From Candidatus Caldarchaeum sp. (GTDB taxonomy: Archaea; Thermoproteota; Nitrososphaeria_A; Caldarchaeales; Caldarchaeaceae): a stretch of 63,470 bases of DNA. The notes under the pieces were generated by a model. That model was not told the DNA's origin. It worked only from the letters and a program-made list of their open reading frames with translations, and made no database searches. The stretch covers positions 1-63,470 of the forward strand of contig JAWACZ010000005.1 of NCBI GenBank assembly GCA_038896555.1, in the 5' to 3' direction. The stretch's first letter is position 1; every line of letters starts with the position of its first letter. Both the position numbers and the translations under genes were made by a program. Shown here piece after piece: positions 1,497-20,162 of this stretch.

Positions 1497-1616
1497 TGGC
1501 GCCGGTCATAGGATGGGGGAAACGCCCGGTCTCAGCCGAACCCGGAAGCTAAGCCCCATCCGCACGGCATTAGTGAGGTGGGAGACCCCTCGCGAAAGCC
1601 GTGTGCCGGCGTCCAA
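1497..1616 (+). rRNA. 5S rRNA
   Basis: About 120 nt. The terminal helix GGCGCCGG (about 1498-1505) pairs with CCGGCGTC (about 1607-1614). The conserved internal 5S segment CCCGGTCTCAGCCGAACCCGGAAGCTAAGCC is present. Confidence 0.85.
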
Positions 1617-4500: not shown

Positions 4501-4602
4501 GGGGGTGTAGCCGAGCAAGGCCAAGGCGTCGGGCTCCAGATCACGTCCAGCTGGTCATGAGGCGCTACCCGAAGACCGTGGGTTCAAGTCCCACCACCCC
4601 CA
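4501..4602 (+). tRNA. tRNA-Trp (CCA) with a canonical-position intron of about 27 nt
   Basis: Acceptor GGGGGTG pairs with CACCCCC, with discriminator A. The T arm is GTGGG-TTCAAGT-CCCAC. The anticodon stem TCGGG pairs with CCCGA only after removing about 4540-4566. The loop is CU-CCA-G(intron)A, so the intron follows position 37. Confidence 0.8.
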
Positions 4603-4625: not shown

Positions 4626-5411
4626 ATGTTCACCACATATCATACCAAACTTTTAAATCCTCTGGCTACCTTTTCAAAAACTGACATAATCATGGTAGAG
4701 GTTGACGAAGGCATGAAGCGTGCGTTGATGAACACGATAGCCGGCGAGGTCATATTTTCCAGCCGGCCTGGTGACGTGTTGAAAAAATGGAGGCTTTTGT
4801 TTGAGGAAAGTCAGAAAAACCTTGCTGAGGCAATGGGGGTGGCTTCTTCGGTGCTGAGCGACTATGAGAAAAGCAGGCGAAAGTCTCCAGGAACAGAGTT
4901 CATCAAAAAATACGTTACCGCATTGATTTCTTTAGACGAAGCCAAGGGAGGGCAACATATCAAGAAGTTCGCCGGGGCTGTGAAGGATTTATCAGGCGTA
5001 GTGCTGGGGATGGCTGAGTATACCTCGCCCAAAACACTTGCGCAGGTCGCCAAAGCTCTCAAAGGTGTATGGCTTGCTGGGCAGAGCATGATGGATTCTT
5101 TTGTTTACGGATACACTGTCATCGACAGCCTCCAAGCTATTCGAAGGCTTGAATCCCATGATTTCCTCCGGCTTTTCGGAGGCAACTCTGTCAGGGTTGT
5201 TGTTTTCACTAATGTTTCGAGGGGGCGTTCGCCCATAATAGCCGCTAAAATCTTTCCAATAAGACCTAGGATGATAGCGATACATGGGCCTAAATCCGCT
5301 GAGGAAGTAGACAGGTTTGCAGTTGAGCTGGCTGCCGCAGAGGGCATACCTTATGTGCTGTCTCTGCATGAAAACGTGGAAACAATTCTAAACGCTCTTA
5401 ACTCGCTGTAG
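4626..5411 (+). CDS. XRE-family HTH transcriptional regulator with a C-terminal domain (COG1395-like archaeal regulator)
   Basis: HTH_3-like segment SQKNLAEAMGVASSVLSDYEKSRRKSPGTEFIKKYVTAL. The true start may be an internal Met (MVEVDEG... or MKRAL...). Confidence 0.55.
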   Translation: MFTTYHTKLLNPLATFSKTDIIMVEVDEGMKRALMNTIAGEVIFSSRPGDVLKKWRLLFEESQKNLAEAMGVASSVLSDYEKSRRKSPGTEFIKKYVTALISLDEAKGGQHIKKFAGAVKDLSGVVLGMAEYTSPKTLAQVAKALKGVWLAGQSMMDSFVYGYTVIDSLQAIRRLESHDFLRLFGGNSVRVVVFTNVSRGRSPIIAAKIFPIRPRMIAIHGPKSAEEVDRFAVELAAAEGIPYVLSLHENVETILNALNSL

Positions 5412-5835
5412 GCGCGGCCGTTCTTCTCACAAGCTTTGCGTTGAGTATTCCATTGACATACCTTAATTCACGTAAAATCGCTTCAAAAGGGAGTTTCACC
5501 GTCCTTTTGAACCCCATCCCGCCGGTGAGAATAAGCTTTCTCCCCAACAGCTCAACCCTCACCTTGCTCTCTGGCCCCGGAACCTGAGCAGTCAAATCCA
5601 CAACGTCCCCCTCATGCCTTATCTCCAGCAGGAAGTCATCCCATGATGTGGAGCTAAAACTTTGGCGGAGCGCTTTGAACCAGTAGAATGCAAGACCAAC
5701 CGCTATGCCGCCGAGAATTAGGCCGAGAAGACCGGCCTGAAGCCTGAGTAGAAAAGACAGTAAGGAGACCACAACCAATGCAAGTAGGAGGTACCCGAAG
5801 AGACGCTGACCTCCCGCTTGCGCCTTGCTGCTCAA
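5398..5835 (-). CDS. Membrane-anchored Hsp20/alpha-crystallin-like protein
   Basis: The N-terminal about 55 aa form two hydrophobic helices. The C-terminus DDFLLEIRHEGDVVDLTAQVPGPESKVRVELLGRKLILTGG...FKRTVKLPFEA...YVNGILNAKL follows the alpha-crystallin domain (ACD) pattern. Its start overlaps the stop of the UPF0182 gene. Confidence 0.45.
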   Translation of the reverse strand: MSSKAQAGGQRLFGYLLLALVVVSLLSFLLRLQAGLLGLILGGIAVGLAFYWFKALRQSFSSTSWDDFLLEIRHEGDVVDLTAQVPGPESKVRVELLGRKLILTGGMGFKRTVKLPFEAILRELRYVNGILNAKLVRRTAAPTAS

Positions 5836-8684: not shown

Positions 8685-8705
8685 TCACAACAAGGTCGGT
8701 AAGTC

Positions 8706-10400
8706 ATGGAGAAGCATCTATCAGGTGGCGGTCTCCTTCTTCTAGCTCTGAAGAAAGCTGGGGTAGACTATTTCTTTATCAACTCTGGAACAGAGTACGC
8801 TGCTCTTCTCATCGACTATCAACAGATGAAGCGGTCTGACAGGCCGGAAATGGTTGTATCGCTTCATGAGTCAACGGCTGTATCCGCGGCCTGCGGATAT
8901 GGGTTGAAGAGCGACAAGCCATGCGCAGTCCTTGTTCACACCGTTCCAGGTGTGACAAACTCTCTTTCAAACTTGCTGAACGCCTTCTCCGCCAGAATTC
9001 CCCTGATTTTGGTCTCGGGTGTTACTCCTTTCTCGAACCAAGGCTACGCAGGCTCCAAAAACATACGTGTCCACTGGGGCCAAGATGTGAGAAACATCCA
9101 AGAGATCGTCCGACAGTTTGTTAAATGGGATTATTTAATCAAGTCTGTTGATGAGATACCATCAGCAGTAGCCAGAGCCTTGGAAATTTCTATAATGTCG
9201 CCAGAGGGCCCTGTTTACATAGGCATATATAGGGAGTGGCTTATGATGAAGGCTGGCGAGCAATTCAAAGCACCTAAGCCAACTCCAGTTTCCAAACCTG
9301 CACCAGACCCCTCCTCAGTGAAACAGGTTGTGGAGAAACTGCTGGAGGCTGAGTATCCTGTTGTTTTGACGCGGTCGGCTGGACGGTGGGTGGAAAATGT
9401 GGAGTTGTTGGTTAGGCTGGCTGAGCTTGTTGGATGCAGAGTCAGCCTGCCAGTAGGCGATTACGTGAACTTTCCAACCACCAATCCATTCTCTGCCCAG
9501 TTCAAGCTTTCTGATGCTGACTTTATCTTAGCTGTTGAGAACGATGTTCCATGGATTCCGTCGGGAGAATCACCTCGAGATGATGCGTACAAAATCTACG
9601 TGAGCACAGACCCTTTGATGACAAATTACGGCGTATGGGGTTTCAGCTTCGACAAAGCCATACAAAGCCACAGCAAGCTCTTCCTCGAAGCGGTTGTTAA
9701 AGAGCTGGAGAAGTCCAAACAATATCTGAAGAAAGATGTTGTAGAGGAGAGGAGGGCGAAAGCTTTTGAGGACTGGACCAGTGAAAAAAAGGCTAGGGAT
9801 AGGGAGGTTGAATCGGATTTCAGGTACGGTATTTTAACGAAGAGGCTTGCGTCACACATTCTCGGACAAGTGGTTTCAAAGAATACAGTCATAGTTAACG
9901 AGTATTCTTTAAGGCCTGAGTACCTTGTTTTTGAGAGCGCCGGGACTTATTTTGGCGAGCCTCCCGCTGGTGCGTTGGGATGGGGTCTTGGGGCTGCGCT
10001 GGGCATTAAGCTGGCTGAGCCGGACAGGGATGTGGTGGTTGTAGTTGGAGACGGTAGCTACGTCTTCAACAACCCAGTTTCAGCACATTGTATGAGCTTG
10101 TGGTACAGCCTGCCGATTCTCGTTGTTATTTTAAACGATGGACGTTGGGGTGATGTTAAACGGAGCATTCTAGACTCAGGATTATACTCATCTTTCGAGG
10201 ATGTTAACAAGCTAGAGGGTGTGGATTTCCCTATGGCGATAGATTTCTACGGCCTTGCCCAAGGCTTAGGCTTAGAGGGATACAATGTTGATGAAGTATC
10301 CATGTTGAAAGGAGTTCTATCAAAAGCCTTTGCCACCGTGAAATCAGGAAAGCCAGCCGTTGTAGACGTCAAAATATCTAGTAGAGCAAGCCTCGTCTAA
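8706..10400 (+). CDS. Thiamine-diphosphate-dependent enzyme (acetolactate synthase/benzoylformate decarboxylase superfamily)
   Basis: 564 aa with the three-domain TPP-enzyme layout. The C-terminal TPP motif is GDGSYVFNNP...ILNDGRWG. Confidence 0.75.
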   Translation: MEKHLSGGGLLLLALKKAGVDYFFINSGTEYAALLIDYQQMKRSDRPEMVVSLHESTAVSAACGYGLKSDKPCAVLVHTVPGVTNSLSNLLNAFSARIPLILVSGVTPFSNQGYAGSKNIRVHWGQDVRNIQEIVRQFVKWDYLIKSVDEIPSAVARALEISIMSPEGPVYIGIYREWLMMKAGEQFKAPKPTPVSKPAPDPSSVKQVVEKLLEAEYPVVLTRSAGRWVENVELLVRLAELVGCRVSLPVGDYVNFPTTNPFSAQFKLSDADFILAVENDVPWIPSGESPRDDAYKIYVSTDPLMTNYGVWGFSFDKAIQSHSKLFLEAVVKELEKSKQYLKKDVVEERRAKAFEDWTSEKKARDREVESDFRYGILTKRLASHILGQVVSKNTVIVNEYSLRPEYLVFESAGTYFGEPPAGALGWGLGAALGIKLAEPDRDVVVVVGDGSYVFNNPVSAHCMSLWYSLPILVVILNDGRWGDVKRSILDSGLYSSFEDVNKLEGVDFPMAIDFYGLAQGLGLEGYNVDEVSMLKGVLSKAFATVKSGKPAVVDVKISSRASLV

Positions 10401-10472
10401 GACCTAGGTAAACAGCGGACAATAATGAAGGAATTACTGCGCACGCAGAGACAACGTTGGCCAGAGAAATAG

Positions 10473-11880
10473 TTAGACGGGGTTGTTCAGCAACATCACG
10501 CAGGTACTCACGTAATCAGTTAACCATTTTTCCGAAGGGGTTGATTCTCCTGCCAAAGCTTTCCAACCATTGACAAATGTCGGGCTTTCAAAAGTTGGGA
10601 TTAAACCATTGTTCGACGGGAAAACTATGAAGAAAAGTAGAGAAAAAGCTACGGCAGCTCCGGCGTACTTATTACACGCTGCAACCCTGGATATCGTGTA
10701 GGCTGCTAAGACATCGGGGGAACCGCTTGAACCAAAAACCTATACTCCGAGTGAACACAAACACGTATGGGATTGTCACGGCAGCACATACAATCGCAGG
10801 TCTGGCTTGAGTTACTCCGTTTTTTACGGTTAACAGGCAGCCTGCGGCGGACAGTAGAACTAGCGGTAGGGTAAGCAGTTCTACCGAGGCAGAAGACCAC
10901 GCCACGATTCTTTGAACAGTGTTTAAACCCTGTTTGGTGATATCGTCCCGCACCATGATTGAGTGAGACACCGGACGTGACAAAACCCCTTTACCCGCTA
11001 TCTGAAACTCATCACCCAGCCTGACGTTGTCGATGAAGAATGGATAAAGCAAAACAACACAGACAACTATGCCGAGGAATATATCGAGACTCCTTTCCTC
11101 GATGCTGGGCTTTACAGACAGTAAATTCTTCTGTTCAAAGACCTTGTAAACGGCCAGGACAGCGAAAAGAAACGACAAAACTAGGAAAGGTACAAAGGTT
11201 CTATCAAGGATGACGGGGGTGATGATGTCGGAGAGTCTTTGCAAAAAGACTTCTTGAGACATGGAAAGCGCTAAGTACGCTGTAGCCGCAAAAACGGTTA
11301 ATACGAGGAGCTTAACCTACTTCGGGGTCCTAGCCACCCAAACCATGGAAAGCATCAAACAAGGTATTAGCAGCATGTTCTGGTCTCTTGCCACTATGGA
11401 CGCGGCGAGAAGACTGCCAGCAACCCACATGTACGGCCCAAACCTCAGGCCCATGCTGAAACAGAGGATGGTTAGAAAGGCGAGGACGGAGCCGAACGCG
11501 TAGTCAAAATGTATGAAGTTGTGAGGACAAAATAATCGAGGAAAACCATTATCAACGAGGTGAGCAGGCAGGCTGAAACGCTTCTGAATATCTTCGTCGT
11601 CAGCAGATAAATGGCTGCGACACCTAAGCTTGTCATCAACGGTGAAACAAGCCTAGCCCATTCCACAGGCGCTCCTGTCAGGTAAACCGCTGTCAAAAGC
11701 CACCAGAAAAGCGGCGGCCTCTCCTCGGCGAAAGGGCCCCACACCTTCGAGGGCTCTATGCGGCCGCTTGAGACGAGGGCGTTATTTATGTAGGCTTTGT
11801 CATCCCAGAAGGGGGCTTCATTAACCAATGCTGGCGGAAGGTATGTGAGGAGGGCGGCGGCGAAAACAAAAAATATTCAT
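10473..11880 (-). pseudogene. GT39/ArnT-like (PMT_2) membrane glycosyltransferase, disrupted by at least three frameshifts and one in-frame stop
   Basis: The ATG at 11880 (MNIF...) is out of frame by one base across an A6/T6 run (11868-11873) from IFFVFAAALLTYLPPALVNEAPFWDDKAY...RPPLFWWLL... (track ORF 11472..11828). Next comes a frameshift into DYAFGSVLAFLTILCF...VARTPK, then an in-frame TAG, then track ORF 10672..11262. A further frameshift leads into KYAGAAVAFSLLFF...LLNNPV, which stops at 10473-10475. Confidence 0.5.
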
Positions 11881-11924
11881 GACGTTCTTTAGATATCTGA
11901 ATTGCTTTTTTCACCATGATTGCT

Positions 11925-12350
11925 TCATGGATATTTACCGCAGTTGTAGCAGTACCAGCGCTGGTATTGTTCAATCCACGTTAATTCCCTGCCGCATGTC
12001 GGGCACGCCGCCTTTTCCTTCCGGCCGAAAGGCAACCTCGAAGTCACTGACGAGAAAATGCCTGGTCGCGGCTGTTGAGCCGTGGGCTGAGCAGCTGGAG
12101 GAACGTAGGTGGTGGCAGCTGGCGCCTCAGGCTGTTTAAGCTCAATCTTCTCTTTTAGAATAATGATATCGCCTGCAGCGGCAACCATGCTCCAGGGAAT
12201 CCTCTCAGGAACGTTATACCTCGACATGACCTGAAGCGATATTTCACCTCCCCCTATTGCGAGCTCGATGTCTGAGACCGTTCCTACGAGCGAGCCGTCT
12301 GGGTTGTAAACCTGCATGCCGATTAACTTGCCGCGGGGTACTGAAGACAA
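11925..12350 (-). CDS. PRC-barrel domain protein with a C-terminal zinc ribbon
   Basis: The N-terminus LIGMQVYNPDGSLVGTVSDIEL...IPWSMV...GDIIIL is PRC-barrel-like. A Pro/Ala-rich linker follows. The C-terminus CPTCGRELTWIEQYQRWYCYNCGKY is a four-Cys ribbon. Confidence 0.65.
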   Translation of the reverse strand: MSSVPRGKLIGMQVYNPDGSLVGTVSDIELAIGGGEISLQVMSRYNVPERIPWSMVAAAGDIIILKEKIELKQPEAPAATTYVPPAAQPTAQQPRPGIFSSVTSRLPFGRKEKAACPTCGRELTWIEQYQRWYCYNCGKYP

Positions 12351-12431
12351 ACCAGTTCACCATACGTTTTTGTCAGTTGGATATATGCGTTTCTCCGATG
12401 CCGTTAACGTTCAGCGGTAACCGCGGATTGT

Positions 12432-14696
12432 CTACCTTTTGGATGTTGCTTCCTTGATGGCTTTGTAGATTTTTTCAGGCTTCAACGGCGTGACCAGATG
12501 GGTTATTCCAAGATGTTTGAGTGCGTCTATAACTGCGTTGGCCACGGCTGGCGTTGCCGCTATGGTTCCCGTTTCACCTATGCCTTTCACACCCAAGGGA
12601 TTGTGTGGCGATGGAGTGACAGTTGCGTCGGTGCGGATTTGCGGTGACTCGCAGGCTGTTGGAACAAGGTATTCGGTTAGGTCGCCTGTGAGAAGGTTTC
12701 CCCGCTCGTCGTAAACAGCTTCCTCGTACAGTGCTTGTGCCAGTCCCTGAATTATTCCGCCGTGGACTTGGCCCTCCACTATCATCGGGTTTATTCGCCT
12801 GCCGCAGTCGTCTACCGCCGTGTAATCCAGTATCTTGACCGCGCCTGTCTCTGGGTCGACTTCAACGGTGCAGACATGTGTTCCAAATGGGAATGTGAAA
12901 TTGGGCGGGTCGTAGAAGACGGTGGCCTCGAGCCCTGGCTCCAATCCCGCTGGCAGTTCGTTGGAGCCTGCTGCGTAGCTGGCGTAAGCCACTTCCCCGA
13001 GAGCCTTGCTCTTCTCAGGCATACCCTTTACGTAGAACCTTCCACCGCTGTACTCTATGTCTTTCTCACCTGCTTCAAGCAGGTGAGCCGCTATCTTGAA
13101 CGCTTTTTCCAAGATTTTACCGCAGGCGATGGCTATGGATGCGCCTGCGACAGGCGTCGTCCTGCTTCCGTATGTTCCCATACCGAAAGGCGTCATGGCC
13201 GTGTCGCCGTGCAGTATTTCGACGTCGTCTATGGGTATCTGCAGCCGGTCGGCCACGATCTGTGCGAAGGTTGTCTCTTCGCCTTGCCCGTGTGGGTGAC
13301 CTCCTATGTAAACCGAAACCTTGCCGGTGGGATGAACTCTGACGACCGTGCTCTCCCACAGTCCAAGCCCGAAGCCCGTCGCTCGAGCTACCGCTGAAGG
13401 GCCCATTCCACAGATCTCGACGTAAGAGGATATGCCTATGCCAACCAGCCTACCCTCACTCCTTTGGTCTTGCTGGCTCTTCCGCTTGTTCCAATAATCG
13501 GCGAGCTCCAGCGCCCGGTCGAAGGCTTTTTCATAGTCGCCGCTGTCGTAAGTAATTCCAATGGGCTTGGCGCTGTACGGGAACTCGTCTCGGCCTATGA
13601 AGTTTAGCCTCCTGATCTCCGCCGGGTCCTTCCCCACCCTCGACGCAACGATGTCCACGACTCTCTCGAGAAGATATGTTGCCTCAGGCCTTCCCGCACC
13701 CCTGTAGGCGTCGACGGGGGCGGTGTTTGTCAACGCACCCACAACCTCCACTTCTATCGCCGGAATCCTGTATGGCCCGCTGAGCATCGGGTCGAAAAGG
13801 ATTGTCGGGATTCCGGGGGAGGCTGTAGAGAGGTAGGCACCCATGTTGGCGTACACCTTAGCCCTAAGCCCTAACAATCTGCCTTGTCTGTCTGCTGCTA
13901 CGTCAACATACTGAATGTGGACGCGGCCGTGTATGGTTGCCTTGAAGTTTTCGCTCCTAGTCTCCCACCATTTAACAGGCCGTTTCAACGTCTTGGCAAG
14001 ATGAAGTAGCACCGCCTCCGGCCCGTAGCAGTGTATCTTGGAGCCGAATCCTCCTCCCACGTCAAGCGATATAACCCTGAGCTTGTGTTCTGGATGACCA
14101 GTCATCGCGGATAGCAAAAGCCGGTGGACGTGAGGGTTCTGCGACGTGATATATACGGTGGCCTCATCTGTGACAGGGTTATAGTCCGCGAGAACCGCTC
14201 TCGTCTCCATGGGGGTTGGCTGGAGTCTGTTGTTTATGATCCGCTGGCTGACCACGATGTCCGCTTTCGAGAAGGCGTTCTCGACCTCGCCTCCCGAAGC
14301 CTTCCACGTGAAGACCTTGTTGTATGGGATGTCGTCGTAGAGCTGGGGAGCGTTCTGTTTCACAGCCTCTTCAGGGTTTACGACGCAGGGTAAAACATCA
14401 TATTCAACGTTGACAAGATGTGCGGCATCTTGCGCTGCCTCATACGACTCGGCGACAACAACTGCGACAGGGTCTCCCACATATCTAACCTTGTCAACAG
14501 CTAGAGACATGTATCTTGAAATATTAAGGTCAGAGCCTGGAATCTGCCAAGCGCACGGGATTGGTGCGACCCTGTCCTTTATGACAGCTCCGCTGACTAC
14601 GTCCAGCACACCCTCGAGCTGGCGGGCCTTCGACACGTCAACAATCTTTATCTTCGCGTGAGCGTAGGGGCTTCGGATAAAATAGGCGTAAACCAT
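12432..14696 (-). CDS. Xanthine dehydrogenase/CoxL-family molybdopterin-binding large subunit (form-II CoxL-like); the N-terminus probably extends to about 14798
   Basis: Contains DVGGGFGSK and the AYRGAGRPEA loop (the form-II signature, not AYxCSFR). The in-frame upstream sequence IAVAKLFGASINRREDPRFLTGRGRFTANLKLPG is the conserved family N-terminus but has no ATG, GTG or TTG codon. Confidence 0.85.
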   Translation of the reverse strand: MVYAYFIRSPYAHAKIKIVDVSKARQLEGVLDVVSGAVIKDRVAPIPCAWQIPGSDLNISRYMSLAVDKVRYVGDPVAVVVAESYEAAQDAAHLVNVEYDVLPCVVNPEEAVKQNAPQLYDDIPYNKVFTWKASGGEVENAFSKADIVVSQRIINNRLQPTPMETRAVLADYNPVTDEATVYITSQNPHVHRLLLSAMTGHPEHKLRVISLDVGGGFGSKIHCYGPEAVLLHLAKTLKRPVKWWETRSENFKATIHGRVHIQYVDVAADRQGRLLGLRAKVYANMGAYLSTASPGIPTILFDPMLSGPYRIPAIEVEVVGALTNTAPVDAYRGAGRPEATYLLERVVDIVASRVGKDPAEIRRLNFIGRDEFPYSAKPIGITYDSGDYEKAFDRALELADYWNKRKSQQDQRSEGRLVGIGISSYVEICGMGPSAVARATGFGLGLWESTVVRVHPTGKVSVYIGGHPHGQGEETTFAQIVADRLQIPIDDVEILHGDTAMTPFGMGTYGSRTTPVAGASIAIACGKILEKAFKIAAHLLEAGEKDIEYSGGRFYVKGMPEKSKALGEVAYASYAAGSNELPAGLEPGLEATVFYDPPNFTFPFGTHVCTVEVDPETGAVKILDYTAVDDCGRRINPMIVEGQVHGGIIQGLAQALYEEAVYDERGNLLTGDLTEYLVPTACESPQIRTDATVTPSPHNPLGVKGIGETGTIAATPAVANAVIDALKHLGITHLVTPLKPEKIYKAIKEATSKR

Positions 14697-14819
14697 GCCT
14701 GGAAGTTTCAGATTTGCCGTAAACCTTCCCCTGCCAGTTAAAAACCGCGGGTCCTCTCTGCGATTTATACTGGCTCCGAATAACTTGGCTACGGCTATTG
14801 CTGAAGGAGTTTATCAAAA

Positions 14820-14828
14820 TTATATAAA
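14820..14828 (-). promoter_or_regulatory. TATA box upstream of the CoxL-like gene
   Basis: TTTATATAA on the minus strand is centred about 26 nt upstream of the in-frame ATA codon at 14798-14796. Confidence 0.4.
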
Positions 14829-14852
14829 CTTTAAAGACTTAAAACCGAAACC

Positions 14853-15530
14853 TCACAACAGAAGGGAAACCCCGTAAACGGTTGCGAAAGATGTCAGGGG
14901 CACGGTGATGTTGTCGTCAACTTTCCCGAACTCAAACTTTTCCACTACAGATGCAACAGCCCCTGAAACAGCTCCCGCAACATCAAGCATCGCAAAGCCC
15001 GTCGGCACACAGAATAAAGCCATGGCCAAGTTTCCCCACCATGACTTCGTTCTCCTACGATATAGTGCGTTCCTCACCAGACCTGTTACGCCGTCTCCAA
15101 CGCTCATGAAGAGAATCGGAAGGATGGCCAATTTCAGGTTTCCGAGAACAAACCCCAGCGCCATGATAAGCCCCCACATGAATATGAAATGAACCTCGAA
15201 CATGTTCTCCTCGACTTGGTACCAGTAATAGAGTTTACCACGTTTGTGGGGTATGTAGTTGCCCACAGCTAGGACCGAGACCATGACAGCTATAAGCAGG
15301 AGGTTGTTGAGCAGATATGGTATTAAAACCGCCACAAGACCTCCAGCCAGTATATGTATGAGTTTTCTGTTGTAGTAAACAGCTACATGGTGTTCCACAC
15401 CTCTAGCCACCATTTTTTCGTAAATTTTCCTAGCCAGATAAAGGCTCACAAACAAAACCCATGCAAACAACCCAATCGTTGCCACCACCTCGTTGACCGT
15501 AAGCACAGGCTCCAACATTAATGAGGCCAT
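14853..15530 (-). CDS. Polytopic membrane protein of the CTP-dependent polyprenol/dolichol kinase (cytidylyltransferase) family
   Basis: 225 aa with multiple TM helices. The motif GDGVTGLVRN...RRRTKSWWGNLAMAL and a C-terminal DDNITVPL resemble the dolichol/phytol kinase family. Confidence 0.5.
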   Translation of the reverse strand: MASLMLEPVLTVNEVVATIGLFAWVLFVSLYLARKIYEKMVARGVEHHVAVYYNRKLIHILAGGLVAVLIPYLLNNLLLIAVMVSVLAVGNYIPHKRGKLYYWYQVEENMFEVHFIFMWGLIMALGFVLGNLKLAILPILFMSVGDGVTGLVRNALYRRRTKSWWGNLAMALFCVPTGFAMLDVAGAVSGAVASVVEKFEFGKVDDNITVPLTSFATVYGVSLLL

Positions 15531-15597
15531 CTATTTCTCAGATTTAAGAATTTTAAACCACATAAACAAATATTCGACGAATCTCCGTCTAAAAATC

Positions 15598-15891
15598 ATG
15601 GAGATAAGGAGGGCGCAAAAATATCTCGACGAGGTTTACGGTGACAGGGATAGAATGCGAGGCATAGACAAAACCCTTGCATGGCTTTTTTCCGAGGTTG
15701 GAGAGTTGTCGGAGGCGGTTGTGCAGAAACTCGGCCGTGACAGGATGCGGGAGGAAGCGGCCGACGTTCTAGCTTGGCTACTCAGCCTCTGCAACGTGGC
15801 AGCCATAGATTTGGAGGAGGCTTTTCTACGTAAATATGGGGCTGGATGTCCACGCTGCGGCTCAAAGCCATGCGTTTGCCCGTTGGCTTAA
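15598..15891 (+). CDS. MazG-like nucleotide pyrophosphohydrolase with a C-terminal Cys cluster
   Basis: The likely start is the ATG at 15598. The sequence MEIRRAQKYLDEVYG...LAWLFSEVGELSEAV...EEAADVLAWLLSLCN carries the EExxE/D-type MazG motifs. The C-terminus is CPRCGSKPCVC. The track ORF starts earlier, at 15493. Confidence 0.6.
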   Translation: MEIRRAQKYLDEVYGDRDRMRGIDKTLAWLFSEVGELSEAVVQKLGRDRMREEAADVLAWLLSLCNVAAIDLEEAFLRKYGAGCPRCGSKPCVCPLA

Positions 15892-16121
15892 CCCTTCCTC
15901 TGCCGTATCTCGTCCTCGATTTCCTCGAGGGTCTTGCCTGTCACGTCTATTCCAAGCTGACGAGCTCTCTCCAAAACCTCCTCCCGCTTGGAGGCTTTCT
16001 CGAACTCTCTTTTCGCCTCGCCCAAAGACCGCGCCAGCTTCGGAAGCTTGCTCGGAAGAATGTATATGGCTATCAAGATGATGGCCGCGATGATTGCTAC
16101 CTCGGTCAACGAGAGAGCCAT
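15888..16121 (-). CDS. tatA: Sec-independent (Tat) translocase protein TatA/E
   Basis: 77 aa. An N-terminal TM helix is followed by PSKLPKLARSLGEAKREFEKA (amphipathic helix), matching the TatA pattern. Confidence 0.7.
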   Translation of the reverse strand: MALSLTEVAIIAAIILIAIYILPSKLPKLARSLGEAKREFEKASKREEVLERARQLGIDVTGKTLEEIEDEIRQRKG

Positions 16122-16176
16122 GGCGAAATAACTGCAGAGTAAGACTTAAACGTTTAGCTGAACATCTCTTCCAGCA

Positions 16177-16250
16177 GGGCCGGTGGTCTAGCCTGGTAGG
16201 ACGCCGCTCTCACACAGCGGAGGTCGAGAGTTCGAATCTCTCCCGGCCCA
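16177..16250 (+). tRNA. tRNA-Val (CAC)
   Basis: Acceptor GGGCCGG pairs with CCGGCCC. Anticodon arm is CCGCT-CUCACAC-AGCGG. T arm is GAGAG-TTCGAAT-CTCTC. Length 74 nt. Confidence 0.9.
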
Positions 16251-16272
16251 CGATTTGCAGGTAAATGTTTAA

Positions 16273-16377
16273 CGGGCCCGGTGGGACTTGAACCCACGAC
16301 CTACGGCTTAGGAGGCCGCCGAACCAGGAAATACACTTATGGTGTATTTCTCTCTATCCATGCTGAGCCACGGGCCC
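16273..16377 (-). tRNA. tRNA-Arg (CCU) with a non-canonical intron of about 30 nt in the D-arm
   Basis: The reverse complement reads GGGCCCG-TG-GCTC-AGCATGGATA-GAG[AGAAATACACCATAAGTGTATTTCCTGGTT]C-G-GCGGC-CTCCTAA-GCCGT-AGGTC-GTGGG-TTCAAGT-CCCAC-CGGGCCC-G. A 75-nt cloverleaf forms only after removing about 16322-16351. The intron contains a perfect 9-bp hairpin. Confidence 0.8.
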
Positions 16378-16433
16378 ACAGATTCATGACAGCCTGACTA
16401 CATAAACTTAAAGGCACCCGCCGCCCTATAGGA

Positions 16434-16960
16434 CTCTGTTAACTTAAGGCCTTTGGCCTAGGGATGCGGTTGTTTTCTCATGTTGTTGAGGATGAGGACC
16501 CCTTTTCCAGCAGTCCTCTACGGGCTTTACCTCGTAGCCCTAGGCTTGAGCTTTAGATGCGTTTCTAGGGCTGTTAAGCCTTTCGTCGGCAGGAGTCATG
16601 TGGCTAAGTGGGTTCAGAGGCTCCCAGGGTTCAGGAGGGTGTTCAGGGCCAGTGCAGGGTATCCCTATCCCTTGCGGATGAGGCTGCTGCCATGGAAGGC
16701 TTCTTGGCATGGGTCTGGGTTGCCTACGAGCCTTACAGCAAAAGAACCCTAGCATTCTGACTTTCATGGAATAGGAACGGCGTACAGATGCTCAAGTACA
16801 GGACGGAAAGCTTCGACGATTACTTCCCATGCAGGAAGAAAGCACGCATTCTAGAGCATGTCTGGAGATGGCTAAACCCCATACACATCCCCACCCAGCC
16901 AGAGACGCCACATCTGACGAACAGCATAAAACAGGTGATGAAGATGGCTTAAGTTAACAG
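16434..16960 (+). mobile_element. MITE-like deletion derivative of an IS element (near-perfect terminal inverted repeats, only scraps of transposase)
   Basis: The left end CTCTGTTAACTTAAG (16434-16448) is the exact inverted repeat of 16946-16960. Inside are an HTH-like N-terminal scrap (ORF 16480..16752, LYGLYLVALGLSFRCVSRAVKPFVGRSHVAKWVQRL) and a C-terminal scrap (..YRTESFDDYFPCRKK..). Confidence 0.55.
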
Positions 16961-16966
16961 AGCCGA

Positions 16967-16986
16967 TGTTAAGTATTTAAATACTT
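16967..16986. promoter_or_regulatory. Perfect 20-bp palindrome over a TATA-like core, upstream of the wHTH gene (candidate operator/promoter)
   Basis: TTAAGTATTTAAATACTTAA is self-complementary and centred on TTTAAA. The centre lies about 41 nt upstream of the ATG at 17018. A GGAG Shine-Dalgarno-like element lies 8-10 nt before the ATG. Confidence 0.55.
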
Positions 16987-17017
16987 AAAGCCCCTTATTA
17001 TCAAAGGAGTAACACTT

Positions 17018-17242
17018 ATGACTTCGCAAGCCATTCACACAAAGGACCAATCTAAAAAAGTCAAGACACTGTTATCAAAGACTCCCGAACTTAGCGTCAA
17101 AGAGCTAGCAAGGGCTTCTCAGGTAAACAGACAGTTTATGGCTGGATTTTTAACGGCTCTGGAAGAAAGAGGCGATGTATATTCAAGAAAAGTTGGGCCG
17201 GCTAGGATTTATTTTAATAGCGAGGTGAAAAGTGGTGAGTGA
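17018..17242 (+). CDS. Small winged-helix DNA-binding protein (candidate controller of the downstream methyltransferase/nuclease genes)
   Basis: 74 aa. LSVKELARASQVNRQFMAGFLTALEERGDVYSRKVGPARIYF fits an HTH-plus-wing pattern. Its 3' end overlaps the methyltransferase start by 11 nt. Confidence 0.5.
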   Translation: MTSQAIHTKDQSKKVKTLLSKTPELSVKELARASQVNRQFMAGFLTALEERGDVYSRKVGPARIYFNSEVKSGE

Positions 17243-18515
17243 GAAGCCCAGTTTCAGCGAACTTGTAAAAGCTAAGGATACAGAACCTTTAATCCGTGGC
17301 TTCTTTTTTACATGTACAGATAAGAGTGAGGAAGAGTGTTTCAAGAGGCGACTGATGGGCACAACCAAAGTCTATGGTCCAGTAGTAATAAGAATCAGAA
17401 AAGGTGACCTTCTATTTCTAATTAATTTAAGTTCTAATGTATTGTATGGGATTTTTAAAGCAGTTTCGGATGGAGGTTTTAATTTACAGCCAGAAGCATG
17501 GAAAGGGAGATACCCTTACCAAGTAAGATTTGAAATTCTTGGAGAAATTATGAAGATAAATGATGCAAAAAAAATTCAACAAAGATTTGGGATAAAAAGG
17601 AATACTCCTCTTTACGGAAAAAAGTTACTTGATTTTATTGATCTTTTTCTTGCCAAGCCTACATTATTAAATGCTTCTATGGGACTGATGAAAAACGATA
17701 CAATTCGCCTAATCATGGAGGAAAAGAAAAAAATTCAGGAGAGAATTAATGAAGTTGATGTTGAAGATGAGATTCCCCTTGTTGAAGCAACAACATTTTG
17801 GGATTTTCCAAGACAAAGTTATGGTTTAACTCCTAAAGGGGACAATAAATATCCAGGCGTTACTCCTGCTTTAATAATCTATAACATGGTATGGAGATAC
17901 ACCGACCCAGGCGATTTGGTTGTTGACCCGATGGCGGGCAGCGGGACAACTCTCGATGTATGCAGGGAAGAGAAGCGGAGATGTATCTGCTACGATATAG
18001 CGCCCACAAGACCTGACGTGATTCAAAATGACTCCAGAAAAATACCGTTAGAAGATAACTCTGTAGACATGATTTTTATAGACTCGCCTTATGGTGATAA
18101 TGTTAGGTATAATGACCATCCAGACTGTATAGGTAAAATTTCCAGCGAGACTGAAGAATTTTATAACGAGCTTGAGAAAGTGATGAAAGAATGTCATAGG
18201 ATATTGAAAGAAGGAAAGGTATTGGGATGGCTAATTGGTGATCAGTGGGTTAAGAATAAATTCACGCCTGTAGGGTTAAAAGTTTACGAGCGCTTATGTA
18301 AATATTTTGAGCCTGTAGACATTATTTGTGTTGCTCGAAGAGGGCAGATCTCTCATAGAGGTCCTTGGTACAATCGAGCAAGGAGACTTAATTTCTATCT
18401 GCGAGGTTTTAAATATCTACTTATAATGAAAAAGCCCTTTCTTGAAAAACCAAGAATCGAAGAGCCTCGAAAAATTAATTGGACCTACTATGAGAGGAAG
18501 AAATTAAAAGCCTAA
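17232..18515 (+). CDS. SAM-dependent N6-adenine/N4-cytosine-type DNA methyltransferase with an N-terminal DCD/EVE-like (PUA-fold) domain
   Basis: Residues about 22-102 read GFFFTCTDKSEEECFKRRLMG...IRKGDLLFLINLSSNVLYGIFKAVSDGGFNLQPEAWKGRYPYQVRF, which follows the DCD-domain consensus. The methyltransferase part has WDFPRQ...YPGVTP..., motif I VVDPMAGSGTT (17922-17951) and motif IV FIDSPYG (near 18078). Confidence 0.8.
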   Translation: MVSEKPSFSELVKAKDTEPLIRGFFFTCTDKSEEECFKRRLMGTTKVYGPVVIRIRKGDLLFLINLSSNVLYGIFKAVSDGGFNLQPEAWKGRYPYQVRFEILGEIMKINDAKKIQQRFGIKRNTPLYGKKLLDFIDLFLAKPTLLNASMGLMKNDTIRLIMEEKKKIQERINEVDVEDEIPLVEATTFWDFPRQSYGLTPKGDNKYPGVTPALIIYNMVWRYTDPGDLVVDPMAGSGTTLDVCREEKRRCICYDIAPTRPDVIQNDSRKIPLEDNSVDMIFIDSPYGDNVRYNDHPDCIGKISSETEEFYNELEKVMKECHRILKEGKVLGWLIGDQWVKNKFTPVGLKVYERLCKYFEPVDIICVARRGQISHRGPWYNRARRLNFYLRGFKYLLIMKKPFLEKPRIEEPRKINWTYYERKKLKA

Positions 18516-18532
18516 GATGGAGACATGGTGAT

Positions 18533-19249
18533 ATGAATATCGAAGATTTAATAAAATTATATGAAGAAAAGAGAAAGATGTATGGCGTTAATGTTTACAA
18601 ACATATATCCGAGCTTTTCAAAGAGGCAAAAAAATTGCATTACGAAGAATGGTCAAAGCACCGAACGGCGAGAGGCGATCACGAACAGTCATGGAGGGCT
18701 TGGAAAGGGAAAAATCTTGAAAAGTTAATCTTACATATAATTAAGAGGGAAGTTGAAAGTTTAGGATTAAAAATAGTTGATGGGAATAAGCTTGAAAGAA
18801 CAAAAAGTGAGAATCTGTCTCGTGAATTGAGTACAGTGAAAAGGAATGTATTAGTAGATTTTGGCGAATTTGGTTCGCACCTTCCAGATGTTGACCTTAT
18901 AATTTATGATCCTAAAACTTGTAAGGTGATTGCAACAATATCATCCAAGGTTACTTTACGAGAAAGAATTGCTCAAACTGGGTACTGGAAAATTAAGCTC
19001 TCAAGAGACGAAGTTACGAAACATATAAAGGTGTTTTTCGTAACCCCAGATGAGGATGGGACGTTAACCACTAAAAAACCAGCGAAAAAAGGAAGGGCTA
19101 TTGTAGAGGTAGATACGGATGGCTGCTATGTTATGAGCAAGACTGATGTAGAGGAAAGCAACAAGGTAAAGATGTTCGATAAATTCATAAGCGATTTAAA
19201 AGAATTGATAAAAAATCGCTCTGAAAAAAAGAATTATCCTAATTTTTAA
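18533..19249 (+). CDS. Putative type II restriction endonuclease (PD-(D/E)xK fold, S-x-K variant)
   Basis: 238 aa, 17 nt downstream of the methyltransferase, with GGTGA before the ATG. The candidate catalytic core is HLPDVDLIIYD...ATISSKVTLRER (PD...D...SxK...E). The family was not identified. Confidence 0.5.
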   Translation: MNIEDLIKLYEEKRKMYGVNVYKHISELFKEAKKLHYEEWSKHRTARGDHEQSWRAWKGKNLEKLILHIIKREVESLGLKIVDGNKLERTKSENLSRELSTVKRNVLVDFGEFGSHLPDVDLIIYDPKTCKVIATISSKVTLRERIAQTGYWKIKLSRDEVTKHIKVFFVTPDEDGTLTTKKPAKKGRAIVEVDTDGCYVMSKTDVEESNKVKMFDKFISDLKELIKNRSEKKNYPNF

Positions 19250-19276
19250 TAATTAAACCTTTTGATCTCAGTTTCG

Positions 19277-20162
19277 GGACTGTAACTTAAGGTCTATGGC
19301 CTGGGTCTTCCCGTTCGTTGGGGGTGGATAAAGTTGGGGTTGGCCTAGGCCGTCTTATAGGTTTCTTCGGCGATAGGAATGTCTTTCTCTGTCTCAGGAC
19401 AACTCCGTGGGTTAGGGCTGTCGGCGTTAGGCTATACGTCAAAGGGGCTCAGCCTCAGGAGGGTAGCGGGGATGTTATGCGAGCTAGGATTCCAGGTAAG
19501 CCATGAGCCTGTCAGGAGATGGCTCCATGGGGCTGGTGAGGCCTTCTCATCTAGCCGTAGACGAGACAGCAATCCGTAACCTCGTCAGGAGGGCCTATGT
19601 ATGGGCTGGACAGCCGAGCGCATAAGGTTCCTTGAGGTAGTTAGGGGGCGGGTCCATAGGCTGGGGAGGGTCTTCAACCCCATGCGTAAGCCCGGGGAGG
19701 CTTTGAGACGGTTGGGAAGAGGCTGGGCGAGGGGTCTGCGTATGGTCTGCTGTCGACGTCGACGCAGGCGAGATAACAGCCGTATACGCTTCTAGAGATA
19801 GGTCTATGCTTAATGCATCGACTTTCCTTAGGATGGTCCTAAGGGCATGCGAAGGTAGTAGTGGACAGGGGTCCATGGTATCCATGGGCTCTAAACGTCT
19901 AGCCATAGAATACTTCCAGGAAACGTTTGGGGAGGGGAGCGGGATAGAGAGGTGGTTCAGAGAGCTGAAGGAGAGGACAAGGAGGCTCTACAACAACACA
20001 AACTCCAACAAGGTAAAGAGCATAGAAGAGATAGCATCAGCCATAGCCCTAACACAACACACCACCCAACACCCAAACGGAACGAAGTGCAATACTTGGT
20101 TGACAGTACCTTGGCCGCTCTGTCCGTTCTGGGCTACGGGCCCAGTTTAACGTCTGCAGAGC
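19277..20162 (+). mobile_element. IS element remnant with a frameshifted DDE transposase (IS6-like signature)
   Basis: The left terminus GGACTGTAACTTAAGGTCTATGGCCT is related to the left end of the element at 16434. Both right ends finish in CAGAGCC. Transposase pieces lie in different frames: HTH (LGYTSKGLSLRRVAGMLCELGFQVSHEPVRRWL), AVDETAIR, VVVDRGPWYPWAL and IERWFRELKERTRRLYNN (D, D and E with K at E+7). Confidence 0.6.

What the first reader, a model, noticed from the sequence alone, without database searches (positions are those of the whole stretch)
16434..20162. AT-rich cargo island bracketed by two related IS remnants next to a tRNA pair
The core at about 16960-19270 is clearly more AT-rich than its flanks. 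Hand counts on two lines gave 25% and 42% G+C, against roughly half or more in neighbouring genes; this was not computed window-wide.

Two same-orientation IS-like elements bracket the core. Their left termini are related: GGACTCTGTTAACTTAAGGCCTTTGGCCT at 16431 and GGACTGTAACTTAAGGTCTATGGCCT at 19277. Both right ends finish in CAGAGCC.

- Element A (527 bp) keeps near-perfect inverted repeats but only scraps of transposase, so it looks MITE-like.
- Element B (about 885 bp) carries HTH, VDET, VVVDRGPWY and ERWFRELKERT pieces in different frames, so its DDE transposase is dead.

The cargo is exactly three genes: a wHTH, a methyltransferase and a nuclease. The layout resembles a decayed composite transposon that delivered a defence module beside tRNA-Arg and tRNA-Val.
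Basis: partly seen in the sequence, partly recalled or inferred. Interest (0 to 1): 0.65.

Follow-up and report, generated by a model that had tools for sequence, protein, structure and literature searches.

The report
IS6-flanked restriction-modification island in Caldarchaeum
A foreign, AT-rich three-gene restriction-modification operon sits between two dead IS6-family insertion sequences in a hot-spring archaeon, where sister strains carry a different defence nuclease; this is a well-documented but ordinary kind of mobile defence island.

Summary
The core 16965-19275 is 36.8% G+C against 50.8±2.6% for the rest of the window (z = -5.5). It holds one operon:
- a small wHTH;
- a DCD-domain/N6_N4 DNA methyltransferase;
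- a BsaWI-family (CCGG-family) restriction endonuclease.

Two IS6-family elements flank it in direct orientation. IS-A (16431-16964, 534 bp) is an internal-deletion derivative. IS-B (19276-20110, 835 bp) is frameshifted.

CAGAGCC at 20156-20162 is chromosomal and lies beyond a relic 5' half of tRNA-Arg at 20114-20143.

The host is a Candidatus Caldarchaeum. Nearly identical sister strains (99.8-99.98% in the flanks) carry a PDC-S11-type NucS-like nuclease gene at exactly this place. A more distant Caldarchaeum does too, so the island displaced a resident defence gene rather than filling an empty site.

A, B and the whole unit all lack a target-site duplication, and A and B are different IS6 species. 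Both were already defective on arrival.

A second MAG has the same flank/IS-A junction and an identical IS-A, but a cassette only 95% identical. The cargo has therefore been exchanged by homologous recombination.

The 'decayed composite transposon' reading is only partly supported. This is a new member of known kinds, of moderate interest.

The parts
16177..16251 (+). tRNA-Val(CAC), left context
   Evidence: ARAGORN and Rfam.
16273..16377 (-). tRNA-Arg(CCT) with a non-canonical intron of about 27-33 nt in the D-arm region
   Evidence: Default ARAGORN and Rfam gathering thresholds miss it. It is called tRNA-Arg(cct) after removal of a 27-33 nt segment. The intron-less orthologue in L081 is called tRNA-Arg(cct) directly.
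16378..16428 (.). Conserved spacer up to the left breakpoint. 16429-16430 (TA) is assigned neither to the flank nor to the IS.
   Evidence: Identical in sister strain L077 up to 16428, after which L077 continues GCATCCGG....
16431..16964 (+). IS-A: a non-autonomous IS6-family element, an internal-deletion derivative. IRs are GG(A)CTCTGTTAACTTAAG and CTTAAGTTAACAGAGCC.
   Evidence: Perfect 15-nt IR. Peptide remnants match intact PF13610 transposases P0121 and P0123 (E = 8.7e-49 and 1.1e-38). About 56 aa are missing, including the second D and the E. The right end at 16964 is confirmed by 5 alternative flanks in run X6. Terminal words have depth 1269-2655, against chromosome depth 9-25.
16969..16988 (.). 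20-nt perfect palindrome TTAAGTATTTAAATACTTAA overlapping a TATA-like TTTAAATA. Putative promoter and possible operator of the operon.
   Evidence: Read from the sequence. TTAAATACT and ATGTTAA are conserved upstream of the wHTH in L003 and L008, but the full palindrome is not.
17018..17242 (+). 74-aa winged-helix protein (weak MarR/TrmB matches). Candidate controller of the R-M operon.
   Evidence: Pfam MarR E = 8.7e-5, TrmB E = 1.2e-3, both below cut-off. It is conserved directly upstream of, and overlapping, the methyltransferase gene in L003 and L008 (85-86% aa) and more distantly in L010, L011 and L027.
17232..18515 (+). DNA methyltransferase: an N-terminal DCD (PUA/EVE-like) domain fused to an N6_N4 methyltransferase, with motif I (DPMAGSGTT) before motif IV (DSPYG)
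   Evidence: Pfam PF10539 E = 6.6e-22, PF01555 E = 1.8e-24. PADLOC MTase_II. 2456 homologues, mainly archaeal.
18533..19249 (+). Type II restriction endonuclease of the BsaWI / CCGG family
   Evidence: Pfam RE_BsaWI E = 2.9e-36, full profile. The family profile hits BsaWI PDB 4ZSF at E = 5.8e-4, aligning PD, SxK and RER to BsaWI D145, K165 and R169-D170-R171 (residue roles from PMC4652773).
19276..20110 (+). IS-B: an IS6-family element with a transposase broken by several frameshifts. IRs are GGGACTGTAACTTAAGG and the reverse complement of GGTACTGTCAACCAAG.
   Evidence: The read-through matches NF033587 transpos_IS6 (E = 6.8e-24, profile positions 18-196 of 202) and PF13610. The left 333 nt are 83% identical to a 685-bp IS at another site in relatives L002 and L074. 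The right end is fixed at 20110 by comparison with L077. Contigs of runs X1, X5 and X6 span the B/flank junction.
20114..20143 (-). Relic 5' half (about positions 1-31) of an intron-less tRNA-Arg(CCT). It forms the right border of the variable slot and is older than the island.
   Evidence: 81% identical to the 5' part of the tRNA-Arg gene (D4). It is present in L002, L074, L077 and L081. The contig joint 16317->20114 in runs X1, X2 and X5 at depth 200-330 is a complete intron-less tRNA-Arg of other organisms.

Best explanation
The block 16429-20110 is a recently acquired defence island in a Candidatus Caldarchaeum chromosome.

Its payload is a self-contained type II restriction-modification operon. 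The BsaWI-family enzyme would cut an unmethylated CCGG-containing site. The DCD-fused methyltransferase would protect the host. The small wHTH probably controls the timing of expression.

The operon lies between two non-autonomous IS6-family elements in direct orientation. It occupies a variable slot between tRNA-Arg and a relic tRNA-Arg half, where the ancestral occupant was a PDC-S11-type NucS-like nuclease gene.

Most likely history:
1. The IS-A/cassette/IS-B block entered next to the resident nuclease gene.
2. The nuclease gene was then deleted up to the outer end of IS-A.
3. The cassette was later exchanged between strains by homologous recombination.

The IS copies can no longer move on their own. 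They act as ends for transposase supplied in trans by abundant intact relatives, and as portable homology for recombination.

Shown: the composition, gene content, IS family and defects, the alleles in relatives, the absence of TSDs, and the recombinant cargo allele.

Inferred: the order of events, the enzyme that moved the block, the recognition site, and the regulatory role of the wHTH.
For: - Foreign composition.
- Operon identity.
- The same wHTH-M-R cassette is 85% identical in nucleotides in a contig binned as Jordarchaeaceae (L003). The M-R pair occurs in more than 50 metagenome loci without any IS6 transposase.
- IS6 membership of A and B. The IR features given for the family, GG tips and cTGTt, are in PMC7986276.
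- IS regions have 10-100x chromosome depth in the hot-spring runs. The cargo has chromosome depth in X2, 25.3 against 24.8-25.4.
- Sister strains L077-L080 carry the PDC-S11-type gene between window 16428 and 20111. The more distant L081/L082 carry it collinearly.
- An independent MAG contig, L083, matches window 7235-18420 without gaps. It has the same flank/IS-A junction and 0 mismatches in IS-A, but 62 mismatches in 17088-18420.
- In run X6 the left flank continues into the nuclease segment. IS-A is preceded by sequence that starts with the nuclease gene's start region. The right flank is joined only to IS-B. All three are at about 8x depth, which suggests an allele holding both the nuclease gene and the island.
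- L003 keeps the last 9 nt of the IS-A right end (AACAGAGCC) at the identical junction with the cassette, whereas L008 does not. In run X5 a diverged IS-A right part is joined to an identical cassette start. The IS-A/cassette junction is therefore older than this insertion.
Against: - There is no target-site duplication anywhere, so no transposase-made junction is demonstrated at this site.
- A and B are different IS6 species, unlike known pseudo-compound transposons.
- The left junction lies 2 nt (TA) outside the GG tip of IS-A. That does not fit a clean transposase-mediated adjacent deletion.
- The proposed intermediate allele rests on short Logan contigs and only 30 visible bases of one contig. 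It differs from L077 in the last 21-23 nt before IS-A.
- The breakpoints nearly coincide with those of the independent deletion in the L002/L074 lineage, at the short repeats GCCGCCCTA and GCCGCTCTG. I cannot explain this.
- The window-type left junction was not seen in Logan contigs of runs X1-X6. It is supported only by the independent MAG contig L083.
Confidence: 0.6

Rival explanations
1. Classical one-step transposition. The A-cargo-B unit moved as a composite or pseudo-compound transposon using its outer ends, landed at this site, and then decayed in place.
For: - Direct orientation of two IS6-family elements around a cargo.
- This is the invariable arrangement of IS6 pseudo-compound transposons (PMC7986276).
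- The whole block is absent from relatives as one indel.
Against: - No TSD flanks the unit. The short repeats GCCGCCCTA and GCCGCTCTG are also present around the nuclease segment of L077, so they predate the island.
- A and B are different species of IS.
- The block replaces 1315 bp rather than being added.
- The flanks are near-identical to an island-free sister strain and IS-A is identical in two alleles, so there was no time for in-place decay.
Confidence: 0.1
2. Pure recombinational import. The block, with some donor flank, entered by homologous or illegitimate recombination from another strain or replicon. The IS elements played no enzymatic part and are passengers or mere homology patches.
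For: - No TSDs.
- Both IS are defective.
- There is clear homologous-recombination mosaicism inside the island. L083 has an identical IS-A plus the first ~120 nt of the core, then 95% identity.
- The X6-type allele has 21 nt of unrelated sequence left of IS-A in place of 23 nt of L077.
- The TA at 16429-16430 lies outside the IS tip.
Against: - It does not explain why both breakpoints in the window fall at, or 2 nt from, the outer tips of the two IS.
- It does not explain why the IS-A end/cassette junction is conserved in other lineages, including a 9-nt scar in L003.
- Intact IS6 relatives are very abundant in the community.
Confidence: 0.25
3. tRNA-targeted integrative element. The island was placed by a site-specific integrase that used the tRNA-Arg sequence as its attachment site, with the relic tRNA half as the second att copy.
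For: - A 30-nt copy of the tRNA-Arg 5' half lies at the right border.
- In Nitrososphaerota MAGs the homologous M-R pair lies beside tRNA-Arg(TCT) and a terminase-bearing region.
Against: - There is no integrase in or beside the block.
- The relic half is present in every relative, including those with the nuclease gene or with nothing in the slot. It marks an older event that created the slot, not the arrival of this island.
Confidence: 0.04
4. Assembly artefact. The metagenome assembler threaded the chromosome through high-copy IS repeats into an RM cassette that belongs to another genome.
For: - The IS are 10-100x more abundant than the chromosome.
- Logan contigs break inside both IS. L001 equals window 16936-19323.
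- The window-type left junction is not seen in runs X1-X6.
Against: - An independent MAG contig (L083) reproduces flank/IS-A/cassette without gaps.
- Contigs span the IS-B/right-flank junction in three runs.
- Cargo depth equals chromosome depth in X2.
Confidence: 0.03

Closest known systems
IS6-family pseudo-compound transposons (such as Tn4003, Tn610, Tn6023, flanked by IS257, IS6100, IS26; review PMC7986276)
   Same: - Cargo lies between two IS6-family elements in direct orientation.
- The IRs have GG tips and a CTGT(T) motif.
- Element size fits: 835 bp for B, and about 700 bp for the undeleted parent of A.
- The IS family is abundant in archaea.
   Different: - The two flanking elements are different IS6 species.
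- Both are defective.
- No 8-bp (or 9-bp) duplication is present.
- The cargo is a restriction-modification operon in a Caldarchaeum chromosome rather than a resistance gene.
- The block replaces resident DNA.
BsaWI and the CCGG family of type II restriction endonucleases (PDB 4ZSF; PMC4652773)
   Same: - Pfam RE_BsaWI matches over the full profile.
- Invariant residues align to BsaWI: PD to D145, SxK to K165, and R-E-R to the R169-D170-R171 CCGG-recognition motif.
   Different: - Sequence similarity to BsaWI itself is only profile-level (E = 5.8e-4).
- BsaWI's second acidic residue D175 has no obvious counterpart.
- The outer bases of the site, and even the CCGG core, are inferred and not tested.
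Prokaryotic DCD-domain/Rossmann methyltransferase fusions (Bell, Wolf and Koonin 2020, PMC7641849)
   Same: An N-terminal DCD (EVE-like) domain is fused to a methyltransferase, mostly in archaea and thermophiles, in a restriction context.
   Different: - Here the partner is identified as a BsaWI-family enzyme, with a wHTH upstream, and the set is shown to travel as a conserved cassette.
- That paper does not mention BsaWI (0 occurrences).
- The role of the DCD domain remains unknown.
Controller (C) protein-regulated R-M systems such as PvuII and AhdI (from my own knowledge)
   Same: A small DNA-binding protein is encoded first in the operon and overlaps the next gene, with a palindrome in the promoter region.
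   Different: - The protein is a winged helix of MarR/TrmB type, not an Xre-type HTH.
- The palindrome is not conserved in the nearest homologous cassettes.
- The gene order is C-M-R.
The IS-flanked 16-kb maltose-transport region shared by Pyrococcus furiosus and Thermococcus litoralis (from my own knowledge, not checked here)
   Same: An archaeal example of cargo bracketed by IS elements and moved between hyperthermophiles.
   Different: It has metabolic cargo and much larger size. Its IS copies were reported as alike.

Membership tests
IS6 family (IS-B, 19276-20110) | DDE transposase homologous to the IS6/IS240 family | tested here: met
   The read-through of the broken frames matches NF033587 at E = 6.8e-24 over profile positions 18-196 of 202 (84.7 bits, below the curated 125, as expected for a pseudogene). 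PF13610 matches at E = 3.6e-5.
IS6 family (IS-B, 19276-20110) | Length 700-890 bp and 15-20 bp terminal IRs with GG tips and a cTGTt motif (PMC7986276) | tested here: met
   Length is 835 bp. The left end is GGGACTGTAACTTAAGG and the right end is the reverse complement of GGTACTGTCAACCAAG. The right IR is imperfect.
IS6 family (IS-B and IS-A) | 8-bp direct target repeats | tested here: not met
   No matching flanks exist for A, B or the unit. The related 685-bp IS in L002 has a 9-bp repeat, AATCCTGTT. Absence of repeats is common after IS6-type rearrangements, so this does not exclude membership.
IS6 family (IS-A, 16431-16964) | Transposase remnants and IRs of IS6 type | tested here: met
   Remnants match PF13610 proteins P0121 (214 aa, E = 8.7e-49), P0123, and P0130, which a source names 'IS6 family transposase'. 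The alignment shows loss of about 56 aa of the catalytic core. The IR is GGCTCTGTTAACTTAAG, with a GG tip and CTGTT.
MITE | Both IS ends, no intervening ORF, usually a few hundred bp (IS6 examples are 227 and 336 bp; PMC7986276) | tested here: not met
   A is 534 bp and keeps about three quarters of its parent, including an 88-90 aa N-terminal ORF. It is better called a non-autonomous deletion derivative.
IS6 pseudo-compound transposon | Flanking IS in direct orientation | tested here: met
   The transposase remnants of both A and B read on the + strand.
IS6 pseudo-compound transposon | The two flanking IS are copies of the same element | tested here: not met
   Only about 23-30 nt of the left termini align (87%). 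The transposases are about 23-26% identical.
IS6 pseudo-compound transposon | The unit is bounded by a target duplication, or found as a unit at more than one site | tested here: not met
   No duplication was made by this insertion. The unit was seen only at this locus. Short-read contigs cannot show other sites.
Type II restriction-modification system | Adjacent methyltransferase and restriction endonuclease genes with intact motifs | tested here: met
   PF01555 with motifs DPMAGSGTT and DSPYG. PF18643 with invariant PD, D, SxK and RER in 19 homologues. The pair is conserved in more than 50 loci.
Type II restriction-modification system | Site-specific cleavage blocked by cognate methylation | not testable with these tools
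   This needs expression and methylome data. CCGG-containing hexamers are not avoided in the host window, which fits recent arrival but is not a test.
C-protein-controlled R-M system | A small regulator that binds a conserved palindromic C-box upstream of its own gene | tested here: inconclusive
   The wHTH is conserved in the nearest cassettes. The 20-nt palindrome is perfect only in the window. The fold class differs from known C proteins.
tRNA-integrating genomic island | An integrase gene, and att repeats created by the insertion | tested here: not met
   There is no integrase. The tRNA-half repeat exists in relatives without the island.

The most novel reading that the evidence does not exclude
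IS-A plus the cassette may behave like an archaeal counterpart of an IS26 translocatable unit. In that reading, an IS6 element and the adjacent R-M operon move together between distant archaeal phyla (Caldarchaeales and a contig binned as Asgard Jordarchaeaceae). They would dock next to another IS6-family element whose end is similar enough to be recognised, which would explain a direct-repeat pair of unlike IS without a duplication. In doing so they would overwrite resident defence genes in a tRNA-linked slot.
Probability: 0.12. Interest if true: 0.55.

Novelty: new member of a known kind. Interest (0 to 1): 0.35.

Why it matters
The locus is a clean natural example, in an uncultured thermophilic archaeon, of defence-gene turnover at strain level. 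Five states of one slot were found in one hot-spring lineage and its close relatives:
- nuclease gene only;
- nuclease gene plus the R-M island;
- the R-M island alone;
- the R-M island with a swapped cassette allele;
- nothing.

This shows that IS6-family elements, known mainly from antibiotic-resistance spread in bacteria, also frame mobile defence cargo in archaea. It also shows that defective IS copies can still matter as recombination handles.

The work gives a concrete partner (a BsaWI-family enzyme) and a testable context for the poorly understood DCD-methyltransferase fusions. None of this changes current concepts.

Tried and rejected
- **L002 as the empty site.** I first took the 94% relative L002 as the pre-insertion state and read GCCGCCCTAT / GCCGCTCTGT as an imperfect 10-bp target duplication of the whole unit. 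I rejected this when the 99.9% sister strain L077 showed the same two short repeats around a different 1315-bp insert. L002 is an independent deletion.\n- **CAGAGCC at 20156-20162 as B's right end.** Rejected.\n- **Other copies of the IS ends.** None in the 63-kb window or in 66 cassette-bearing metagenome loci, except in Caldarchaeum contigs and the 9-nt scar in L003.\n- **Viral contigs.** No relative of the nuclease was found.\n- **phmmer of the nuclease against PDB.** Nothing relevant.

Full report
**Host and setting.** The window begins with an archaeal 16S fragment and a 5S rRNA. The only species-level relative in the genome collection is a Candidatus Caldarchaeum MAG, L002, about 92-94% identical. 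Further MAG contigs of the same lineage were recovered through the neighbouring 542-aa protein. All related runs are hot-spring metagenomes.

- The core 16965-19275 has 36.8% G+C. Equal-length windows elsewhere average 50.8% (sd 2.6, minimum 45.8), so z = -5.5.
- Its tetranucleotide deviation exceeds all 276 comparison windows.
- GC3 of its genes is 0.33-0.39, against 0.53-0.62 in the neighbours.
- The two flanking elements have host-like G+C, 52% and 54%.

**The quoted termini.** A has a perfect 15-nt inverted repeat and ends in AACAGAGCC at 16964. Five contigs in run X6 leave the window sequence exactly there.

Everything from 20111 onward, including CAGAGCC at 20156-20162, is chromosomal. 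It is 99.98% identical in sister strains that lack B. B ends at 20110 in TTGACAGTACC, the mate of its left end GGGACTGTAAC. Revised sizes are 534 bp for A (16431-16964) and 835 bp for B (19276-20110).

**What the flanking elements are.** Both belong to the IS6 family.
- Joining B's broken frames gives a protein that matches NCBIfam IS6 transposase over essentially the whole profile (E = 6.8e-24), and Pfam DDE_Tnp_IS240.
- A B-like 685-bp element sits at a different site in relatives L002 and L074. It has perfect 18-bp IRs, a 9-bp duplication and a single frameshift, and it matches the same profile at E = 1.3e-32.
- A's remnants match intact 196-214 aa PF13610 transposases from Nitrososphaerota and Caldarchaeum MAGs (E down to 8.7e-49). 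The alignment shows that A has lost about 56 residues, including the second D and the E of the catalytic triad.
- The IRs show the family hallmarks listed by Varani et al. (PMC7986276): GG tips and a CTGT(T) motif.
- A and B are nevertheless different species. Their transposases are about a quarter identical, and only about 30 nt at the left tips align.
- Both families are highly repeated in the community. Depth over the IS is 150-800, and over the shared terminal words 1269-2655, against 9-25 for the chromosome.

**What the cargo is.** It is one operon of three genes.
1. A 74-aa winged-helix protein, with weak MarR/TrmB matches, overlaps the start of the next gene by 11 nt.
2. A 427-aa protein has an N-terminal DCD domain (PF10539, E = 6.6e-22) and an N6_N4 DNA methyltransferase domain (E = 1.8e-24). 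Motif I precedes motif IV.
3. A 238-aa protein matches the full RE_BsaWI profile (E = 2.9e-36).

A profile built from 19 homologues hits the BsaWI structure 4ZSF. It aligns the invariant PD, SxK and R-E-R to BsaWI's D145, K165 and R169-D170-R171. In the BsaWI paper those are active-site residues and the CCGG-recognition motif (PMC4652773). A CCGG-containing target is therefore inferred, not shown.

The DCD/methyltransferase fusion was already described as frequent among the rare prokaryotic DCD domains (PMC7641849). The database holds 2456 homologues, mostly archaeal.

**The cassette elsewhere.**
- The M-R pair is conserved in more than 50 metagenome loci.
- The wHTH is present in the nearest of them.
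- None of these loci has an IS6 transposase.
- The nearest cassette, in a 4.4-kb contig binned as Jordarchaeaceae (L003), is 85% identical in nucleotides over window 16956-19249.

**Where the island sits.** The 94% relatives L002, L074 and L075 join window ~16426 directly to 20114, which looked like an empty site. It is not the ancestral state.
- The sister strains L077, L078, L079 and L080 match the window at 99.8-99.98% over several kb of flank, 5.6 kb to the left (L077) and 6.2-8.7 kb to the right. Between window positions 16428 and 20111 they carry a different 1315-bp segment.
- That segment encodes a 339-aa NucS_C-like nuclease, which matches the PADLOC candidate defence family PDC-S11 at E = 4.4e-69.
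- The more distant Caldarchaeum contigs L081 and L082 (78% nt) have the same gene in the same place, collinear. They also have an intron-less tRNA-Arg(CCT) and the relic tRNA half.
- The nuclease gene is therefore the ancestral occupant. The L002 lineage lost it, and in the window it is replaced by IS-A/cassette/IS-B.

**The slot is older than the island.** It is bounded on the left by tRNA-Arg and on the right by a 30-nt copy of the 5' half of an intron-less tRNA-Arg (20114-20143). This is the usual footprint of an old integration into the tRNA gene. It is present in all relatives, so it predates this island.

**How the island got there.** No target duplication flanks A, B or the unit. The short repeats GCCGCCCTA and GCCGCTCTG that I first took for one also surround the nuclease segment in L077. 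Three further observations constrain the history.

1. The island is recent and its IS were already dead on arrival. The flanks are near-identical to island-free strains. IS-A has no mismatch between the window and an independent MAG contig, L083.
2. L083 matches window 7235-18420 without a gap and has the same flank/IS-A junction. From 17088 onward it differs at 62 of 1333 positions. This variant is also seen in runs X1 and X6. The cargo has therefore been exchanged by homologous recombination inside a constant frame.
3. Run X6 suggests an allele that holds both the nuclease gene and the island, that is, insertion first and deletion later.
   - The left flank continues into the nuclease segment.
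   - IS-A is preceded by sequence whose first 9 visible bases equal the start region of the nuclease gene.
   - The right flank is joined only to IS-B.
   - All three are at about 8x depth.
   - This rests on short contigs and is not proven.

**The IS-A/cassette junction is older than this insertion.**
- L003 retains the last 9 nt of the IS-A right end at the same junction, although it has no IS.
- The next-nearest cassette, L008, lacks those 9 nt.
- In run X5 a diverged IS-A right part is joined to an identical cassette start at depth 90.

**Interpretation.** The architecture is that of an IS6 pseudo-compound transposon, but two defining features fail: the flanking elements are not identical copies, and there is no bounding duplication. 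The block cannot move by itself.

The best reading has three steps:
1. A pre-assembled IS-A/cassette/IS-B block entered next to the resident nuclease gene.
2. That gene was lost up to the IS-A end.
3. The cassette allele was later swapped.

The enzyme responsible for entry is unresolved. The choices are an IS6 transposase supplied in trans, or host recombination. Against a clean transposase event, the left junction lies 2 nt outside the IS tip.

I cannot explain why the breakpoints almost coincide with those of the independent L002 deletion. An assembly artefact is unlikely, given L083, the contigs spanning the right junction, and the equal depth of cargo and chromosome in X2.

**Comparison and novelty.** Each component is known:
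- IS6 elements and their direct-repeat transposons (PMC7986276);
- CCGG-family endonucleases (PMC4652773);
- DCD-methyltransferase fusions (PMC7641849);
- R-M systems as mobile, compositionally foreign cargo (for example PMC4176335, listed but not read).

What is new is the particular combination and host, and the strain-level series of alleles. I rate it a new member of known kinds, with interest 0.35.

The most novel reading not excluded is an IS26-like translocatable unit of IS-A plus cassette that docks beside an unlike IS6 element and crosses archaeal phyla. I give it about 12%.

Noticed in passing
window 16273-16377 (minus strand): tRNA-Arg(CCT) carries a non-canonical intron of about 27-33 nt in the D-arm region. 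Default ARAGORN and Rfam gathering thresholds miss it, and ARAGORN with intron search miscalls it tRNA-Glu. The orthologue in the more distant Caldarchaeum contig L081 is intron-less.
   Followed up: partly
window 20114-20143 (minus strand): Relic 5' half of an intron-less tRNA-Arg(CCT). It is present in all relatives and probably marks an old integration that created the variable slot. In L078 it shows 7 clustered mismatches (20119-20132), which suggests gene conversion or assembly bleed-through from other tRNAs.
   Followed up: partly
L077 5863-6882 (the same slot in sister strains; also L078, L079, L080, L081, L082): A 339-aa NucS_C-like PD-(D/E)XK protein that matches the PADLOC candidate defence family PDC-S11 (E = 4.4e-69). 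It occupies the slot in strains without the island.
   Followed up: partly
L002 10917-11601 and L074 about 5318-5676 (equivalent to window ~15503-15623): A 685-bp IS6 element related to IS-B lies upstream of the MazG gene in the 94% relatives only. It has perfect 18-bp IRs, a 9-bp duplication (AATCCTGTT) and one frameshift. A 9-bp rather than 8-bp duplication is unusual for IS6.
   Followed up: partly
window 16969-16988: A 20-nt perfect palindrome, TTAAGTATTTAAATACTTAA, overlaps a TATA-like box upstream of the wHTH gene. It is only partly conserved in the nearest homologous cassettes.
   Followed up: partly
whole window outside 16431-20110: GATC is strongly under-represented (observed/expected 0.42). 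GTGCAC and ACTAGT are absent, and GCTAGC and GCGCGC are at 0.22-0.25 of expectation. This hints at other, older restriction pressures. CCGG-type hexamers are not avoided.
   Followed up: no
L004, L005, L006 (Nitrososphaerota MAGs): A homologous DCD-methyltransferase and a distant BsaWI-family nuclease lie directly beside tRNA-Arg(TCT) and a region with a large terminase gene. There the cassette seems to ride on, or sit next to, a provirus-like element.
   Followed up: no
L007 (Archaeoglobales MAG) and L009, L029: The same DCD-methyltransferase occurs without any recognisable nuclease partner, so orphan copies of this methyltransferase exist.
   Followed up: no
window 1498-1614 and 4501-4602: A 5S rRNA lies about 0.9 kb from the 16S end. 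A tRNA hit 102 nt long (4501-4602) is found by Rfam but not by ARAGORN, so it is probably another intron-bearing tRNA.
   Followed up: no
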